Below are positions 31,123 to 38,202 of a stretch of DNA of 64,000 nt, one piece after another. The stretch spans positions 35,357 through 99,356 of the forward strand of contig JADFRY010000003.1 in NCBI GenBank assembly GCA_022561055.1. Direction: 5' to 3'. Made by a program: the position numbers and the translations under genes. The stretch comes from Nanobdellota archaeon. GTDB lineage: Archaea > Nanobdellota > Nanobdellia > Pacearchaeales > GW2011-AR1. Position 1 is the first letter of the stretch. Each line of letters opens with the position of its first letter. Below the pieces are notes generated by a model that saw only the letters and a list, made by a program, of their open reading frames with translations, was not told the DNA's origin and made no database searches.

Positions 31123-31779
31123 ATGGAATCTTTTATAAAGAAAATTTTTCGTGGTGAGAGCGATGAAGAAGTTCATAAATATTTTGTAAGATTTGGAAAA
31201 GGAGATTATAAGAGAAGATTCTTAATTAGTTTGAATAAGGTGGGAAAAATAAAATTGAGAGCAAGTTTTGAATTAGCTAATGACTTTGTAAATTTTGTTA
31301 AAGAGAATAAAGATGTAAAGTTTTCTGGAAAGATCTTAACAAAAGAAAAAGTTCCTGGTAAAGAAGGAAGAAAAAAGTCTGGTTATTTTGTGTATGAAAT
31401 ATCAGAAAGTTCAATAGAAAAATTTGAAGATGCTTATTTTTATTTATTAAATGTTGAGGATCCCGATATTGTTTTGAAGATAAAGAAAAAATTGCCGAGG
31501 CCTGGGAAAAAAGCTGATAAAATTGATGATAAATTTTGTTCTTTGGATTTGGATAAAAAATACTGGCCTATGGTTAAAGATGCTTTTTTCTGGGATGTTC
31601 CTGAGAATGTTAAGAAAGTTTCAATAGAGCATGAGTTAATAATTGATGATATAATTTTTCCTGAAGATGTTGATAATCCTGTTAAGATAAGAGAGCTTGC
31701 AAAGAGAAAAGGCAAAATTATCAGGATGACTATTGTTGACGGAAAAGAAAAATCTGAAGAGAAGGAGTTTGTTATTTGA
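31123..31779 (+). CDS. Hypothetical 218-aa soluble protein
   Basis: ORF with a TATA-like box 26 nt upstream (AAGTTTTATAAAGC, 31090-31103). No motif recognised. Confidence 0.45.
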   Translation: MESFIKKIFRGESDEEVHKYFVRFGKGDYKRRFLISLNKVGKIKLRASFELANDFVNFVKENKDVKFSGKILTKEKVPGKEGRKKSGYFVYEISESSIEKFEDAYFYLLNVEDPDIVLKIKKKLPRPGKKADKIDDKFCSLDLDKKYWPMVKDAFFWDVPENVKKVSIEHELIIDDIIFPEDVDNPVKIRELAKRKGKIIRMTIVDGKEKSEEKEFVI

Positions 31780-32267: not shown

Positions 32268-33209
32268 ATGCCTAAGAGATCAAGACCAAGATATGGAAGT
32301 TTACAATTTTGGCCTCGGAAAAGAGCAAGCAAGGCCATACATAGTGTTAACTGGAAACCTATAATTGAGAATAAACTTGATTCTGAAGGACTGCTTGGGT
32401 TTATTGCCTATAAAGTTGGTATGTGTTCTGCAATTGTGAAAGACAATACACAGCATTCTATGACAAAGGGAAAAAAGATAGCAATACCAACGACAACTCT
32501 TGAAGTTCCAAATATGAAAATTTATTCTGTTAGGTTTTATAAAAGTGGTATAGTTATTGGAGAGATTGTTGTAAGTAATGACAAAGTTTTAAAGAGAAAA
32601 GTGAGAGTTCCTAAAGAAGCTAAGAAATTAGAGCATATTGAGGGATTTGATGATATTAGAGTAATTGTTTATTCTGTTTTGAAAGGTATGTTTAAGAAAA
32701 GTCCTGATATTATTGAAGTTGCTATTAATTCCAATGATAAATTGGGTTTTATCAAACAGTGGGTCGGTAAAGAAATTGGCTTGAATGATATATTGAAATG
32801 GGATTTGGTTGATGTTCGTGGCTTAACTAAAGGAAAAGGATTTTCTGGACCAGTTAAAAGATTTGGAATAAAATTAAAACCTCACAAGTCAGAAAAAGGA
32901 GTTAGAAGGCCAGGAAGTCTTGGTCCTTGGCATCCAGCGCGTGTTAGTTTTAGAGTTCCAATGGCTGGGCAGTTGGGAATGTTCTCAAGAATACATTATA
33001 ATTTGAAAGTTATTGATTTTGGAAATGTGAAAGAAAAAAATATCAATAAAAAAGGCGGCTTTAAACATTATGGAGTAATTAAAAATAATTACGTTATTCT
33101 TGCAGGAAGCGTGCAAGGTCCTTCAAAAAGACAGATATTGATTACTCCTGCTATGCGCCCTACTAAAAAACAAATTAAAAAGAAATATGAACTTTTGGAG
33201 TTGAGATGA
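32268..33209 (+). CDS. rpl3: Ribosomal protein L3 (uL3)
   Basis: MPKRSRPRYGSLQFWPRKRA... and its position as first gene of the cluster. Confidence 0.95.
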   Translation: MPKRSRPRYGSLQFWPRKRASKAIHSVNWKPIIENKLDSEGLLGFIAYKVGMCSAIVKDNTQHSMTKGKKIAIPTTTLEVPNMKIYSVRFYKSGIVIGEIVVSNDKVLKRKVRVPKEAKKLEHIEGFDDIRVIVYSVLKGMFKKSPDIIEVAINSNDKLGFIKQWVGKEIGLNDILKWDLVDVRGLTKGKGFSGPVKRFGIKLKPHKSEKGVRRPGSLGPWHPARVSFRVPMAGQLGMFSRIHYNLKVIDFGNVKEKNINKKGGFKHYGVIKNNYVILAGSVQGPSKRQILITPAMRPTKKQIKKKYELLELR

Positions 33210-33210
33210 A

Positions 33211-33990
33211 ATGGTAAAAACAATACTATATGACATAAAAGGTAAGAAGAAAGGAAATGTAGAGCTACCTAATATTTTTGCGAGCAAAATTAGAGAAGAT
33301 ATTGTTGCTAAGTATCTTGAAGTTAGTAAATTTATTCAACCATATGCAACTGATCCTGAAGCTGGAAAAAAACATTCAGCATCTGGAACTATAAGTCACA
33401 AAAGGCACGATTGGAAAGGACATTATGGCAGAGGAATATCAAGAATCCCGAGAAAAACAATGTGGAGACGTGGTACGCAATTTATGTGGATTGGTGCGGA
33501 AGTTTCTAGTACTCGCGGAGGTAGAAGATCGCATCCTCCAAAAGGCATAGGAAAAGAAAAAAAGATTAACAAAAAAGAAATTAAACTCGCCATGAATTCG
33601 GCTTTTGCTGCGACAGCCGATGATAAGTATATTTTAAAAAGATATGACAGCATTAATAAACTGAATATTAAAGTTCCTATTGTTATAGAATCTGGTTTGG
33701 ATGAAGCTAAGACAAAAGACATTTTGAGCATGTTAAAAAATATTTTAGGAGAATTTAATTCTATAATTTTTAAAAATAAGAAAATTAGGGCAGGAAGAGG
33801 AAAATCACGAGGAAGGAAATACAAAAGCAATGCTGGTCTTTTGTTAGTTAAAGGAAAAGATGAAAAAATAAAAATGAGCAGGGTTGATATAAAATCTATA
33901 AATGAGATTTCTATTTTAGACTTATATCCTCTGGGCAGATTGACTGTTTATACTGAAAAAGCTTTAGAGGAATTAGGAGATAAAAAATGA
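33211..33990 (+). CDS. rpl4: Ribosomal protein L4 (uL4)
   Basis: HKRHDWKGHYGRGISRIPRK; cluster order. Confidence 0.95.
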   Translation: MVKTILYDIKGKKKGNVELPNIFASKIREDIVAKYLEVSKFIQPYATDPEAGKKHSASGTISHKRHDWKGHYGRGISRIPRKTMWRRGTQFMWIGAEVSSTRGGRRSHPPKGIGKEKKINKKEIKLAMNSAFAATADDKYILKRYDSINKLNIKVPIVIESGLDEAKTKDILSMLKNILGEFNSIIFKNKKIRAGRGKSRGRKYKSNAGLLLVKGKDEKIKMSRVDIKSINEISILDLYPLGRLTVYTEKALEELGDKK

Positions 33991-34622
33991 TAGTTGTTGA
34001 TATAGAAACGAGTGGAAATTTTGAACCTCAAAAAATTGGGATTTGGCAGATAGGGGCAGTTGATTTTGATAATCCTAAAAATACTTTTTTAGAAGAATCA
34101 AGAATTGACGAAGAAGATGAAATAGTTAAAGAAGCTTTAATGATTACAGGTAAAACAGAAAAGGAATTAAGAAATGAGAATAAACAACCTCAAAAAGATT
34201 TGTTAAAAAACTTCTTTGATTGGGCTGCAAAGATTGAGAATAAAACTTTGGTTGCTCATAATACTCCTTTCGACTATGGATTCTTATTTTTAAGAGCTAA
34301 AAAGTATGGATTAGAATTTCCATTTGGATATAAAACATTTGATTTGCATGTGATTGCAGCAGTTAAATATTTTGAGATTAATAGAGAATTTTTAATGGAA
34401 GAAGGAAATAGTAAAATGAATCTGCCAAATATTTTACAAATGTGTGGCATGAAAGACGAGAGAATTCAAATGAAAGATAATAAAATAATTAAAGAAGGTA
34501 AACCTCATAACGCATTAGAAGACGCTAAGTTGACTGCAGAATGTCTATCAAGGATACTTTATGGTAAAGGTTTATTTGAAGAATATAATATATTATCAAT
34601 ACCAGAGGTGTTACGCAAATGA
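33987..34622 (+). CDS. DEDDh 3'-5' exonuclease (DnaQ/RNase T-like) embedded in the r-protein operon
   Basis: ExoI MIVVDIETSG, ExoII LVAHNTPFDYGFL, ExoIII HNALEDAKLTAE. ATGA overlaps with both rpl4 and rpl23. Confidence 0.75.
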   Translation: MIVVDIETSGNFEPQKIGIWQIGAVDFDNPKNTFLEESRIDEEDEIVKEALMITGKTEKELRNENKQPQKDLLKNFFDWAAKIENKTLVAHNTPFDYGFLFLRAKKYGLEFPFGYKTFDLHVIAAVKYFEINREFLMEEGNSKMNLPNILQMCGMKDERIQMKDNKIIKEGKPHNALEDAKLTAECLSRILYGKGLFEEYNILSIPEVLRK

Positions 34623-34861
34623 TACTAAAACCAATTACGTCGGAAAAAGCAGTTAGAATGATTGACTTGGACAATGCTCTTTTGTTTGAAATTGAAAGAA
34701 GATACAGAAAAGCTGATATAAAAAAAGAAGTTGAAAAAAGTTTTGGGGTTAAAGTCGATAAAGTAAGAACGTTAATTAGACATAACAAAAAACTTGCATA
34801 TGTTAAATTAAACAAATCAAATCCGGCAATTGATGTTGCCACGAAGTTGGGGATGATATAA
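34619..34861 (+). CDS. rpl23: Ribosomal protein L23 (uL23)
   Basis: ILKPITSEKAVRMIDLDNALLFEI...; cluster order. Confidence 0.9.
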   Translation: MILKPITSEKAVRMIDLDNALLFEIERRYRKADIKKEVEKSFGVKVDKVRTLIRHNKKLAYVKLNKSNPAIDVATKLGMI

Positions 34862-35224
34862 ATGCAAATACAACTACAATATAGACGAATAACGAGTGAA
34901 CAGGATCTAGCAAATGCTAGAATTAGAGATGTTATGGAGGTTGCTTTAGGAGCAATAAGAGTTGCTCGGGTGGTTTATGAATGGGTAATAAATGGCAAAT
35001 ATGCTTTTATAGAGAGGAGTAATATAAAACCTGAATCAATTGTTAGTTGGAGATCTGATAAATCAATGCTTCAATTTGATGAAGATGGAATAATAAGAAT
35101 TAATCCAGTAAGAAAAAATCCTAATAGAGTTTATATTGATATGAAAATATATAGACCATTATTTAAAGATTATGAGGAAAAAGTTGAAATGTTAAGAGAA
35201 GCAAGATTATGGGAAAGAGAATAA
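34862..35224 (+). CDS. Hypothetical 120-aa protein inserted between rpl23 and rpl2
   Basis: Starts the base after the rpl23 stop (TAAATG). Overlaps the rpl2 start by 16 nt. No recognisable motif. Confidence 0.5.
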   Translation: MQIQLQYRRITSEQDLANARIRDVMEVALGAIRVARVVYEWVINGKYAFIERSNIKPESIVSWRSDKSMLQFDEDGIIRINPVRKNPNRVYIDMKIYRPLFKDYEEKVEMLREARLWERE

Positions 35225-35907
35225 TACAACAGGCAAGAGGAAAAGGAAGTTTAACTTATAGAGTTAGAAAAAAGGCTTTTAAATATAGAGTAGGGTATCC
35301 TTCAAACAGAGGAGAAGCTGAAATTGTAAAAATAATTCATTCTGCTGCACATTCTGCACCTTTAATTAAAACAAAAGTTGATGAAAAAATATTTTTTAAT
35401 GTTGCATTTACCGGTGCTTTTGAAGGTCAGAAGATTATGATTGGAGGAAATGAGCCTGGAGAAGGAAATATAATCATATTAAAAGAAATTCCAATAGCAA
35501 CAAAAATATTCAATATTGAACGAAACCCTGGTGATGGGGGGAAAATGATAAGAACCGCAGGAATTAGTGCTGTTGTTTACAAAAAATATGAAAATAATGA
35601 AATTGGAATTATTATGCCAAATAAAAAAGAAGTTAAATTAAATGAAAATTGCAGAGCTACAATTGGAATTGTTGCAGGAGAAGGAATAAAGCAAAAACCT
35701 TTTATGAAAGCAGGAAAAATGTTTCACAAAAAGAAAGCAAAAAGTAAATTGTGGCCTAGAGTTTCTGCTGTTTGTATGAATGCAGTTGATCATCCATTTG
35801 GTTCTGGCAGAGGCAAAAGAATCAAATCAAAAATTGCTAAAAGAAATGCTCCTCCTGGAAGAAAGGTTGGTCATTTAAGACCGAAAAAAACAGGTAAGAA
35901 AAGATAA
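35209..35907 (+). CDS. rpl2: Ribosomal protein L2 (uL2)
   Basis: MGKRIIQQARGKGS..., MNAVDHPFGSGRGK. Confidence 0.95.
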   Translation: MGKRIIQQARGKGSLTYRVRKKAFKYRVGYPSNRGEAEIVKIIHSAAHSAPLIKTKVDEKIFFNVAFTGAFEGQKIMIGGNEPGEGNIIILKEIPIATKIFNIERNPGDGGKMIRTAGISAVVYKKYENNEIGIIMPNKKEVKLNENCRATIGIVAGEGIKQKPFMKAGKMFHKKKAKSKLWPRVSAVCMNAVDHPFGSGRGKRIKSKIAKRNAPPGRKVGHLRPKKTGKKR

Positions 35908-37832: not shown

Positions 37833-38132
37833 ATGGAGATAGATCCAAGAACTGGCTTGCCTGTTGAGGCTATCGCGTGGGAAGACCTCGCAAAAAGCGA
37901 ACAGAAGATAAAAGTGATAACTGAGAAACGAAGATACGGGAAGATTATTACCTGTATATCGGGTTTTGACAAGAGCATTGATATAAAGGGTACGGCAAAA
38001 ACTTTAAAAGCTGAACTCGCTTGCGGGGGAACTGTCAAAGACAGTATAATTGAACTCCAAGGAAACCACAAAAAACAAGTAAAACCGATTTTGGTTAAGC
38101 TTGGTTTTCCTGAAGAGTTAATTATTAATTAG
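37833..38132 (+). CDS. sui1: Translation initiation factor aIF1 (SUI1)
   Basis: RRYGKIITCISGFD...LKAELACGGTVKDSIIELQGNH. Confidence 0.9.
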   Translation: MEIDPRTGLPVEAIAWEDLAKSEQKIKVITEKRRYGKIITCISGFDKSIDIKGTAKTLKAELACGGTVKDSIIELQGNHKKQVKPILVKLGFPEELIIN

Positions 38133-38143
38133 CTTAAAAGCTA

Positions 38144-38157
38144 AGCTTTAAAAACGC
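38144..38157 (+). promoter_or_regulatory. TATA-like box inside the r-protein cluster, upstream of rps17
   Basis: AAGCTTTAAAAACG about 50 nt before the rps17 ATG. Followed by hairpin GAAAGTC-GTA-GACTTTC (38179-38195). Confidence 0.35.
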
Positions 38158-38202
38158 GAAAAGGGTGATGGAAAAAAGGAAAGTCGTAGACTTTCGTAGA
38201 GA

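What the first reader, a model, noticed from the sequence alone, without database searches (positions are those of the whole stretch)
33987..34622. DEDDh exonuclease translationally wedged between rpl4 and rpl23
The rpl3-rpl4-rpl23-rpl2 order is almost invariant in archaea and bacteria. Here a 211-aa protein with all three DEDD motifs sits between rpl4 and rpl23: VVDIETSG, HNTPFDYGF and H-x4-D in HNALEDAKL. It shares ATGA start/stop overlaps on both sides, so it is co-transcribed and probably translationally coupled with r-proteins. This suggests stoichiometric or functional linkage to the ribosome. Possible roles include rRNA 3' trimming, tRNA end turnover, or ribosome-associated RNA quality control in a lineage with few RNases.
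Basis: partly seen in the sequence, partly recalled or inferred. Interest (0 to 1): 0.65.

Follow-up and report, generated by a model that had tools for sequence, protein, structure and literature searches.

The report
Exonuclease gene inside ribosomal protein operon
A real, catalytically intact 3'-5' exonuclease gene sits between ribosomal protein genes L4 and L23 in this tiny archaeon and in about half of its relatives, but the same single-copy gene sits elsewhere in the rest, so its position shows co-expression rather than a proven ribosome partnership.

Summary
ORF 33987-34622 (+) encodes a 211-aa DEDDh exonuclease with all five catalytic residues (D5, E7, D96, H174, D179). ATGA stop/start overlaps join it to L4 and L23.

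The arrangement is not unique to this contig. Of 80 species-level Pacearchaeota/Woesearchaeota-type genomes, 38 have L4-EXO-L23, mostly with the same overlaps.

The ribosome-linkage reading is only partly supported:
- The gene is single-copy but changes position. In 21/80 genomes it is coupled to the replication gene GINS51, and in about 20 it lies elsewhere.
- The window's closest relatives by r-protein sequence have a plain L4/L23 junction.
- Supported exonuclease clades mix contexts.
- ATGA overlaps are common here (10 of 63 adjacent gene pairs).
- This operon carries many other variable inserted ORFs in this lineage.

The protein is an uncharacterised subfamily. By sequence it is nearest to DnaQ/PolC-type domains, by fold to Cap18 and RNase T. 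A sister clade occurs in bacteria.

The substrate is unresolved. I favour RNA 3'-end trimming slightly (about 0.45) over a DNA replication/repair role (about 0.35). No literature on it was found.

It is a new member of a known enzyme kind in an unusual, recurrent operon slot. Interest is moderate.

The parts
32268..33209 (+). rpl3 (L3), first gene of the S10-like cluster
   Evidence: Pfam Ribosomal_L3 E 1.3e-52
33211..33990 (+). rpl4 (L4). Its stop codon overlaps the exonuclease start.
   Evidence: Pfam Ribosomal_L4 E 8e-21; coordinates
33975..33979 (+). Shine-Dalgarno-like AGGAG inside the L4 3' end, 7 nt upstream of the exonuclease ATG
   Evidence: Read. An SD-like motif occurs upstream of the exonuclease start in 21/23 double-overlap loci. 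Function inferred.
33987..33990 (+). ATGA stop/start overlap, L4/exonuclease
   Evidence: The same -4 overlap occurs in 29/38 related genomes.
33987..34622 (+). 211-aa DEDDh 3'-5' exonuclease (uncharacterised Pacearchaeota subfamily)
   Evidence: Pfam RNase_T and Rv2179c-like above cutoffs. 609 homologs. AF2 pLDDT 96.7. Foldseek matches to Cap18, RNase T, 3'hExo and the DnaQ domain.
33993..34016 (+). Exo I motif VVDIETSG (catalytic D5 at 33999-34001, E7 at 34005-34007)
   Evidence: Aligned to the D-x-E of 2p1j/8fyc. D5 and E7 are invariant in 55 sequences.
34257..34283 (+). Exo II motif HNTPFDYGF (catalytic D96)
   Evidence: Aligned to HNANFD of 2p1j. D96 invariant.
34459..34499 (+). Clade-specific beta-hairpin insert (about residues 158-171, R-I-x-x-K-x-G-x-V-x-K-E-G) just before Exo III
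   Evidence: Strands at 161-163 and 166-169 in the model. Present in the archaeal clade and absent from the bacterial sister clade. Role unknown.
34506..34532 (+). Exo III motif HNALEDAKL (H174 at 34506-34508, D179 at 34521-34523), the 'h' signature H-x4-D
   Evidence: Aligned to HRALDDA of 2p1j. H174 and D179 invariant.
34605..34610 (+). Shine-Dalgarno-like GAGGTG inside the exonuclease 3' end, 8 nt upstream of the L23 ATG
   Evidence: Read. An SD-like motif occurs upstream of L23 in 18/23 loci. Function inferred.
34619..34622 (+). ATGA stop/start overlap, exonuclease/L23
   Evidence: The same -4 overlap occurs in 28/38 related genomes.
34619..34861 (+). rpl23 (L23)
   Evidence: Pfam Ribosomal_L23 E 2e-14
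34862..35224 (+). Second inserted ORF (120 aa, unknown) between L23 and L2. It starts directly after the L23 stop (0-nt gap) and overlaps L2 by 16 nt.
   Evidence: No Pfam or NCBIfam hit. Weak relatives at the same junction in L024 and L050.
35209..35907 (+). rpl2 (L2). The cluster continues with S19, L22, S3, L29, SUI1, S17, L14.
   Evidence: Pfam Ribosomal_L2_C E 1.4e-35. Downstream order and syntenic loci.

Best explanation
The ORF encodes an active, stand-alone DEDDh (DnaQ/RNase T-type) 3'-5' exonuclease. It removes nucleotides from free single-stranded 3' ends by two-metal-ion hydrolysis. D5/E7/D96/D179 hold the metals and H174 acts as general base. This chemistry is inferred from invariant residues and fold; it was not assayed.

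It is a conserved, single-copy housekeeping gene of Pacearchaeota-type DPANN archaea. It belongs to a family shared with small-genome bacteria.

In this genome it is a passenger of the r-protein operon. It is transcribed with L3-L4-L23-L2, and its translation starts at its own SD-like site across the L4 stop codon. Its expression should therefore track ribosome synthesis.

The slot is one of two recurrent, interchangeable positions: L4|L23, or phosphoglycerate mutase|GINS51. Operon membership therefore reflects growth-coupled co-expression. It does not show a stoichiometric ribosomal component.

My committed guess for the substrate is RNA: trimming 3' extensions of stable RNA precursors (rRNA/tRNA) and/or clearing RNA fragments, an RNase T-like job. 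I put this at roughly 0.45. The substrate step is inference only.
For: Enzyme:
- Pfam RNase_T and Rv2179c-like (an exoribonuclease family) match over full length.
- Catalytic residues align and are invariant.
- The model is confident. It has full-length fold matches to RNase T, 3'hExo/ERI and Cap18.

Housekeeping, vertically inherited gene:
- 609 homologs.
- 158 50%-identity clusters at E<=1e-30.
- One copy in each of 80 distinct assemblies.
- Exonuclease divergence co-varies with r-protein divergence (Mantel r 0.48, 0/2000 permutations).
- GC 0.29 versus 0.30-0.36 for neighbouring genes.

Operon passenger:
- L4-EXO-L23 in 38/80 genomes with ATGA overlaps in about 75% of junctions, plus L088.
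- SD-like motifs upstream of both starts.

Interchangeable slots:
- EXO-GINS51 in 21/80 genomes, with an overlap in 14/21.
- Empty L4/L23 junction on the same backbone.
- Empty mutase/GINS51 junction on the same backbone, versus a filled one.
- Mixed contexts within supported clades.

RNA lean:
- The r-protein operon is the commonest context.
- In bacterial sister-clade loci, an RNase AM (RNM)-like PHP protein lies directly upstream in 12 loci, with bL27/bL9 nearby.
- One fusion to a MazF/PemK RNA toxin.
- Tandem two-domain fusions suggest a dimer, as in RNase T, Orn and Rv2179c.
- From general knowledge, archaeal replicative polymerases carry their own proofreading.
Against: - Sequence profiles rank DNA-acting relatives first: PolC exonuclease domain 5e-12, Cas2-associated DnaQ 9e-12, Cas2-DEDDh 2e-11, Cap18 1e-8, versus RNase T 2e-5. 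The best NCBIfam hits are PolC/DnaQ-type.
- The second recurrent partner is the replisome protein GINS51.
- A RecJ/Cdc45-like DHH protein lies upstream in two genomes.
- An SNF2 helicase lies downstream in one locus.
- Endonuclease III lies downstream in bacterial relatives.
- Cluster-2 DPANN reportedly retain the core exosome, so a 3'-5' RNA exonuclease is not obviously missing.
- There is no biochemical or expression data.
Confidence: 0.45

Rival explanations
1. It is a DNA 3'-5' exonuclease working in replication or repair. It would edit or trim 3' DNA ends in trans, with the CMG/GINS machinery or in base-excision repair. The r-protein operon would be merely a convenient expression site.
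For: - The nearest relatives by sequence profile act on DNA: PolC exonuclease domain, Cas2-associated DnaQ, Cas2-DEDDh, Cap18. NCBIfam hits are PolC/DnaQ-type.
- Translationally coupled to GINS51 in 21/80 genomes.
- A RecJ/Cdc45-like DHH-CID protein lies upstream in L012 and L017.
- An SNF2 helicase lies downstream in L086.
- An Exo_endo_phos gene lies nearby in L090.
- Endonuclease III (TIGR01083, above cutoff) lies downstream in 9 bacterial sister-clade loci.
- Pacearchaeota/Woesearchaeota carry a bacterial-derived PolB (B7), so bacterial-type replication/repair parts are precedented (PMC7544198).
Against: - The commonest context is the r-protein operon (38/80).
- The GINS51 neighbourhood is itself a mixed housekeeping cluster: SRP54, FtsY, phosphoglycerate mutase, NDK, S3Ae.
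- All epsilon equivalog models are far below cutoff, and there is no C-terminal polymerase- or clamp-binding tail (the protein is 211 aa).
- From general knowledge, PolB enzymes normally proofread for themselves.
Confidence: 0.35
2. The exonuclease would be a stoichiometric, ribosome-bound factor, effectively a lineage-specific ribosome accessory protein. It would act on the ribosome in RNA quality control or rRNA end turnover.
For: Double translational coupling inside the most conserved r-protein string, conserved in 38/80 species.
Against: - In more than half of species, including the window's nearest relatives, the single-copy gene lies outside the operon.
- ATGA overlaps are a genome-wide habit: 10/63 pairs.
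- The same operon carries many unrelated variable inserts, including an HD-motif protein (read by eye, not scanned) and a 501-aa lipoprotein-like ORF.
- No ribosome-binding domain beyond the exonuclease fold.
Confidence: 0.08
3. It is a selfish or recently transferred passenger, for example a defence- or mobile-element-associated exonuclease like Cap18 or Cas2-DEDDh. It would have landed in a permissive hot spot and have no core cellular role.
For: - The top Foldseek hit is the CBASS exonuclease Cap18.
- One close homolog sits in a toxin-antitoxin island.
- The genomic location changes often.
- 7-13 nt direct repeats (AAAATGA-type) flank the ORF.
- The r-protein operon is an insertion hot spot.
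Against: - One copy in each of the 80 assemblies that carry it (the scan found only carriers, so universality in the lineage was not measured), with invariant catalytic residues.
- Co-divergence with r-proteins.
- Native GC content.
- No CBASS, CRISPR or integrase genes beside it in the RP or GINS contexts.
- The flanking repeats are explained by A-rich ATGA junctions and Met-Ile starts.
Confidence: 0.05

Closest known systems
RNase T (Rnt, gammaproteobacteria) and the Rv2179c-like exoribonucleases
   Same: - Stand-alone DEDDh protein of about 200 aa.
- Full-length fold match: TMq 0.56-0.66 over 204-221 alignment columns.
- Pfam RNase_T and Rv2179c-like models are passed.
- Tandem fusions hint at a dimer.
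- Association with ribosome-related genes.
   Different: - RNase T equivalog TIGR01298 scores 13 bits against a cutoff of 246.
- About 21% identity.
- Lives in archaea.
- Has a clade-specific beta-hairpin before Exo III.
- Substrate untested.
DnaQ-type proofreading domains (Pol III epsilon, PolC exonuclease domain 2p1j)
   Same: - Best sequence-profile matches: 5e-12 for 2p1j.
- Same Exo I/II/III spacing in the N-terminal half.
- The D-L-H motif after Exo II resembles, from my recollection of DnaQ sequences, their D-T-L motif; this was not aligned here.
   Different: - All epsilon/PolC NCBIfam models are far below cutoff, for example TIGR00573 at 40 bits against 71.5.
- No C-terminal alpha- or clamp-binding segment.
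- Archaea lack Pol III (general knowledge).
Cas2-DEDDh / Cas2-associated DnaQ domain (8fyc, 8h18) and CBASS Cap18 (7t2s)
   Same: Close by sequence (1e-11 to 1e-8) and by structure (top Foldseek hit is 7t2s; TMt 0.74-0.79).
   Different: - Not fused to Cas2.
- No CRISPR or CBASS genes in any surveyed neighbourhood.
- Present as one copy in each carrying assembly rather than as an accessory.
Non-ribosomal genes already known inside archaeal r-protein clusters (SUI1/aIF1, RNase P protein Rpp29, SecY, adenylate kinase)
   Same: - A non-ribosomal, RNA/translation-adjacent or housekeeping gene embedded co-directionally in the S10-spc cluster.
- SUI1 and SecY are present in this window's cluster.
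   Different: - Those occupy the L29-S17 junction or the spc distal end and are widespread in archaea (general knowledge).
- This one splits L4|L23, is restricted to one DPANN lineage, and is positionally unstable.

Membership tests
DEDDh (DnaQ-like) 3'-5' exonuclease superfamily | Exo I D-x-E, Exo II D, Exo III H-x4-D, all present and aligned | tested here: met
   D5/E7, D96 and H174/D179 align to 2p1j and 8fyc and are invariant in 55 homologs.
DEDDh (DnaQ-like) 3'-5' exonuclease superfamily | RNase H-like alpha/beta exonuclease fold | tested here: met
   AF2 pLDDT 96.7, pTM 0.93. 140 PDB matches at E<=1e-3; the 50 listed are all DEDDh-type exonucleases. Pfam PF00929 46.7 bits against 24.
DEDDh (DnaQ-like) 3'-5' exonuclease superfamily | Metal-dependent 3'-5' exonuclease activity | not testable with these tools
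   Needs an enzyme assay.
DNA polymerase III epsilon (DnaQ proper) | Scores above the curated equivalog/subfamily cutoffs | tested here: not met
   TIGR00573 40.1 against 71.5; TIGR01406 34.3 against 222.7; PRK05711 33 against 196.
DNA polymerase III epsilon (DnaQ proper) | C-terminal segment binding Pol III alpha, plus a clamp-binding motif | tested here: not met
   The protein ends about 20 residues after the Exo III helix (211 aa). No extension exists in the family.
RNase T | Scores above the RNase T equivalog cutoff | tested here: not met
   TIGR01298 13 bits against 246.2. PDB RNase T matches at only 1.7e-5 with the family profile.
RNase T | Obligate homodimer with the partner subunit supplying the substrate-binding patch | tested here: inconclusive
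   The only evidence is an indirect hint: natural tandem two-domain fusions with one degenerate active site (P0241, P0258). No multimer prediction was available.
Rv2179c-like 3'-5' exoribonuclease domain (PF16473) | Pfam gathering threshold passed over the full domain | tested here: met
   42.9 bits against 27, residues 2-190 on profile positions 3-176 of 177. The family name does not establish RNA specificity here.
Archaeal S10-like r-protein operon (as a member gene) | Co-directional, no intergenic gap, flanked on both sides by r-protein genes, conserved in relatives | tested here: met
   Conserved in 38/80 genomes but absent from this slot in the others.
Ribosome-associated / ribosomal accessory protein | Physical association with ribosomes or pre-ribosomes | not testable with these tools
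   No proteomic or structural data. Positional instability argues against an obligate link.

The most novel reading that the evidence does not exclude
The enzyme would be an archaeal counterpart of RNase T: a DEDDh exonuclease, shared with (and perhaps acquired from) small-genome bacteria, that trims rRNA/tRNA 3' ends during ribosome biogenesis in Pacearchaeota. That would explain why selection repeatedly parks it, translationally coupled, inside the L3-L4-L23-L2 string. To my knowledge it would be the first DEDDh stable-RNA maturation enzyme described in Archaea. It would also show that the most conserved r-protein gene string can recruit a processing enzyme.
Probability: 0.3. Interest if true: 0.6.

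Novelty: new member of a known kind. Interest (0 to 1): 0.42.

Why it matters
- L3-L4-L23-L2 is one of the most conserved gene strings in prokaryotes. Here a large uncultivated archaeal lineage splits it with a nuclease gene and keeps the tight coupling in about half of the species surveyed.
- The same lineage tolerates many other inserts in this operon.
- If the enzyme matures stable RNA, it fills a gap in archaeal rRNA/tRNA 3'-end processing, and with an enzyme family shared with bacteria.
- If it works with GINS, it adds a DnaQ-like exonuclease to an archaeal replisome.
- Either way it is a compact, well-folded and easily expressed candidate for characterising DPANN housekeeping biochemistry.
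- The alternating-slot pattern is a clean natural example of a gene relocating between translationally coupled operon positions.

Tried and rejected
- Literature: four searches for prior descriptions (Pacearchaeota+exonuclease+ribosomal protein; DPANN+DEDDh; archaea+DnaQ-like+GINS; DEDDh+archaeon+exoribonuclease) found nothing relevant.
- RNA elements: Rfam on the whole window found only two tRNAs, far from the locus, and no structured RNA near the exonuclease.
- Two ancient paralogs with differential loss: rejected. There is one copy per assembly among 80 assemblies, and contexts are mixed inside bootstrap-supported clades.
- Recent horizontal arrival in this contig: rejected. GC is native, the gene co-diverges with r-proteins, and L088 shares the arrangement.
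- ATGA overlaps as special evidence of linkage: rejected. They occur at 10/63 adjacent pairs.
- The plain NJ tree could not resolve deep branching. Only bootstrap-supported clades were used afterwards.
- Matching contig lengths to find the r-protein operon of the L001 genome, or GINS51 of RP-type genomes, failed. Empty slots were shown in other genomes instead.
- The first distant-clade alignment was too divergent for the metagenome scan. A narrower one worked.
- The look-up of distant homolog P0296 gave a 2-kb contig of little use.
- The bacterial promoter/terminator scan was not run, because archaeal promoters are not covered by that tool.
Full report
**1. Observation**

ORF 33987..34622 (+) is real. 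It is 211 aa and starts with ATG. It shares the four bases ATGA with the L4 stop at 33987-33990 and with the L23 start at 34619-34622.

Pfam identifies L3, L4, L23 and L2 around it. The ORF itself matches RNase_T (PF00929, 46.7 bits) and Rv2179c-like (PF16473, 42.9 bits). Both matches are above cutoff and cover the full length.

They align to Exo I/II/III of the PolC exonuclease domain 2p1j and of Cas2-DEDDh 8fyc. D5, E7, D96, H174 and D179 are invariant in 55 homologs.

An AlphaFold2 model is very confident, with pLDDT 96.7 and pTM 0.93. SD-like motifs sit 7-8 nt before both overlapping start codons: AGGAG at 33975-33979 and GAGGTG at 34605-34610.

**2. What the protein is**

It is an uncharacterised subfamily of DEDDh exonucleases.

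- With a family profile, the nearest solved relatives by sequence are the PolC exonuclease domain (5e-12), a Cas2-associated DnaQ domain (9e-12), Cas2-DEDDh (2e-11) and CBASS Cap18 (1e-8). RNase T is further away at 2e-5.
- By fold, the best matches are Cap18, RNase T, 3'hExo/ERI and the DnaQ domain. TM-scores normalised to the query are only 0.56-0.67.
- No NCBIfam equivalog (epsilon, PolC, RNase T) comes near its cutoff.
- The archaeal clade has a specific beta-hairpin (about residues 158-171) before Exo III.
- The family has 609 detectable homologs, named 3'-5' exonuclease or 'epsilon-like' in Pacearchaeota, Woesearchaeota and Nanoarchaeota MAGs. It comprises 158 50%-identity clusters at E<=1e-30.
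- Two members are natural tandem duplications with one degenerate active site (P0241, P0258). One member is fused to a MazF/PemK toxin domain. The tandem forms hint at a dimeric enzyme.
- A more distant clade (30-40% identity) lies next to bL27 and bL9 and is therefore bacterial. Its loci often carry an RNase AM (RNM)-like PHP protein directly upstream (12 loci) and endonuclease III downstream (9 loci). In many of these sequences the last catalytic Asp is replaced by Gly.

**3. Genomic context in relatives**

A scan of one genome per species returned 80 loci from 80 different assemblies, so there is one copy each. A tblastn survey gave three groups:

| Context | Genomes (of 80) |
|---|---|
| L3-L4-EXO-L23-L2-S19-L22-S3 | 38 |
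| EXO directly upstream of GINS51 | 21 |
| Other places | about 20 |

In the r-protein group, the L4/EXO junction is a 4-nt overlap in 29/38 and the EXO/L23 junction in 28/38. SD-like motifs precede the exonuclease start in 21/23 double-overlap loci and the L23 start in 18/23.

In the GINS51 group, 10/21 junctions are the same 4-nt overlap and 4/21 are a 14-nt overlap.

The other contexts include:
- a RecJ/Cdc45-like DHH-CID protein upstream with aIF2-alpha downstream, in two genomes including a complete one;
- a set with TrmB, a small unannotated ORF (124 aa, no Pfam hit), a cytidylyltransferase and NifS;
- positions near FtsZ and a predicted metallo-beta-lactamase-fold protein (read by eye, not scanned).

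The FtsZ, NifS and TrmB labels in that set are likewise readings of the sequences by eye, not family scans. The close homolog P0003 (67% identity) shows L3-orf-L4-EXO-L23-orf-L2-orf-S19, like the window. P0002 lies next to an SNF2 helicase and P0015 sits in a toxin-antitoxin island.

**4. The slot is interchangeable**

- The window's closest relatives by r-protein sequence are L083 (L3 73%, L4 76%, L23 86%), L084 and L085. They share the upstream synteny (AI-2E transporter, a 216-234 aa ORF, L3, L4) but have a plain L4/L23 ATGA overlap with no exonuclease.
- Some genomes have phosphoglycerate mutase (or a His_Phos protein) directly followed by GINS51 on the same SRP54-FtsY...NDK-S3Ae backbone. 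Others have the exonuclease wedged between them.
- Bootstrapped trees of the exonuclease show supported clades with mixed contexts. A 73% clade holds the window and L088 (RP), L003 (GINS) and six others. A 100% clade holds 6 RP and 1 other. An 85% clade holds 4 RP and 2 GINS.
- Exonuclease divergence still co-varies with r-protein divergence (Mantel r 0.48, 0/2000 permutations), though less tightly than r-proteins do with each other (0.80).
- Its GC content is native.

Together this describes a vertically inherited, single-copy gene that has moved repeatedly between a few translationally coupled positions. It is neither two old paralogs nor a recent import. Both junctions are A-rich ATGA sites, which gives 7-13 nt direct repeats around the ORF. 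These repeats could favour precise loss by slippage; that is inference.

**5. How special the coupling is**

It is not very special. The window is 92% coding and 33% GC. Ten of 63 same-strand adjacent gene pairs overlap by ATGA.

The r-protein operon of this lineage is also unusually permissive. Co-directional extra ORFs of 70-190 aa occupy several junctions:

| Junction | Loci with an insert |
|---|---|
| L3\|L4 | 15/38 |
| L23\|L2 | 13/37 |
| L2\|S19 | 10/36 |
| L22\|S3 | 10/33 |

Most of these ORFs are unrelated to each other. A few related ones sit at different junctions in different genomes. They include an ORF with an HD-type motif (read by eye, not scanned) and a 501-aa lipoprotein-like ORF. 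The window's own example is ORF 34862-35224. The exonuclease is the one widely conserved insert among many.

**6. Function**

Shown: an intact DEDDh catalytic set, a confident exonuclease fold, strong purifying selection, and operon membership with signals for coupled translation.

Inferred: two-metal 3'-5' hydrolysis of single-stranded 3' ends, and expression tied to ribosome synthesis.

The substrate is not settled.

RNA-side evidence:
- the r-protein operon is the commonest context;
- an RNase AM-like neighbour, with bL27/bL9 nearby, in the bacterial clade;
- one MazF fusion;
- the dimer hint;
- archaeal polymerases proofread for themselves (general knowledge).

DNA-side evidence:
- the nearest sequence relatives act on DNA;
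- GINS51 coupling in 21/80 genomes;
- RecJ-like, SNF2 and endonuclease III neighbours;
- precedent for bacterial-derived replication parts in this lineage, the PolB B7 group (PMC7544198).

The 'few RNases' argument is weak, because cluster-2 DPANN are reported to retain Rrp4/41/42 and lack only Csl4 (PMC7414124). I commit to RNA 3'-end trimming at about 0.45, with DNA replication/repair at about 0.35. A stoichiometric ribosome-bound role is unlikely (about 0.08), given the positional instability.

**7. Comparison and novelty**

It works like RNase T or DnaQ-type enzymes, but it fails the curated membership thresholds of both. It is a member only of the DEDDh superfamily and of the broad Pfam RNase_T / Rv2179c-like domains.

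Non-ribosomal genes inside archaeal r-protein clusters are known; SUI1 and SecY are present in this window. A gene splitting L4|L23 is unusual, and I found no paper describing it.

Verdict: a new, uncharacterised member of a known enzyme kind, in a conserved but interchangeable operon slot. Interest is moderate (0.42).

Noticed in passing
window 34862-35224 (+); also L009-L081 and L088: A 120-aa ORF with no family hit sits between L23 and L2. In 38 related genomes nearly every junction of the L3...S3 string carries variable, co-directional, mostly unrelated ORFs of 70-190 aa: L3|L4 15/38, L23|L2 13/37, L2|S19 10/36, L22|S3 10/33. A few related ORFs sit at different junctions in different genomes. 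The r-protein operon looks like an insertion hot spot in this lineage.
   Followed up: partly
L001 6647-7207 and homologs P0390-P0509: The GINS51-like protein next to the exonuclease is unusually conserved. The best 120 database homologs are 77-89% identical, whereas L4 homologs of the same lineage are 60-75% identical. This is odd for a GINS subunit.
   Followed up: no
L091-L170 (metagenome loci); alignment A3: A bacterial sister clade of the exonuclease (neighbours bL27 and bL9) often has Gly in place of the last catalytic Asp (PHNALNGA / TGA). It sits between an RNase AM (RNM)-like PHP protein and endonuclease III.
   Followed up: partly
P0241, P0258, P0313 (database proteins): There are natural tandem fusions of two exonuclease domains in which one copy has lost Exo I residues. 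One exonuclease is fused to a PemK/MazF toxin domain.
   Followed up: partly
window 33980-33994 and 34612-34626; 23 related loci: The exonuclease ORF is flanked by a direct repeat (AAATGATA in the window, 7-13 nt in relatives). This arises from A-rich ATGA junctions and from both the exonuclease and L23 often starting Met-Ile. The empty L4/L23 sites of L083-L085 carry one copy. It may provide microhomology for precise loss.
   Followed up: partly
window 37833-38132 and 38133-38202: SUI1/aIF1 lies between L29 and S17. Only 70 nt remain before S17, so there is no RNase P protein (Rpp29) gene at the position where many archaea have one (synteny).
   Followed up: no
window 31123-31779 (+): A 218-aa ORF without any Pfam hit lies upstream of the operon. 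An unannotated ORF of similar size (216-234 aa) lies at the same position in relatives L083-L085, next to the AI-2E transporter gene; their homology to the window ORF was not checked.
   Followed up: no
L073 (JAKLDG010000001.1, 867 kb): A contig labelled 'Patescibacteria group bacterium' carries an archaeal-type exonuclease that is 45% identical to the window's. This could be a mislabelled bin or an inter-domain transfer.
   Followed up: no
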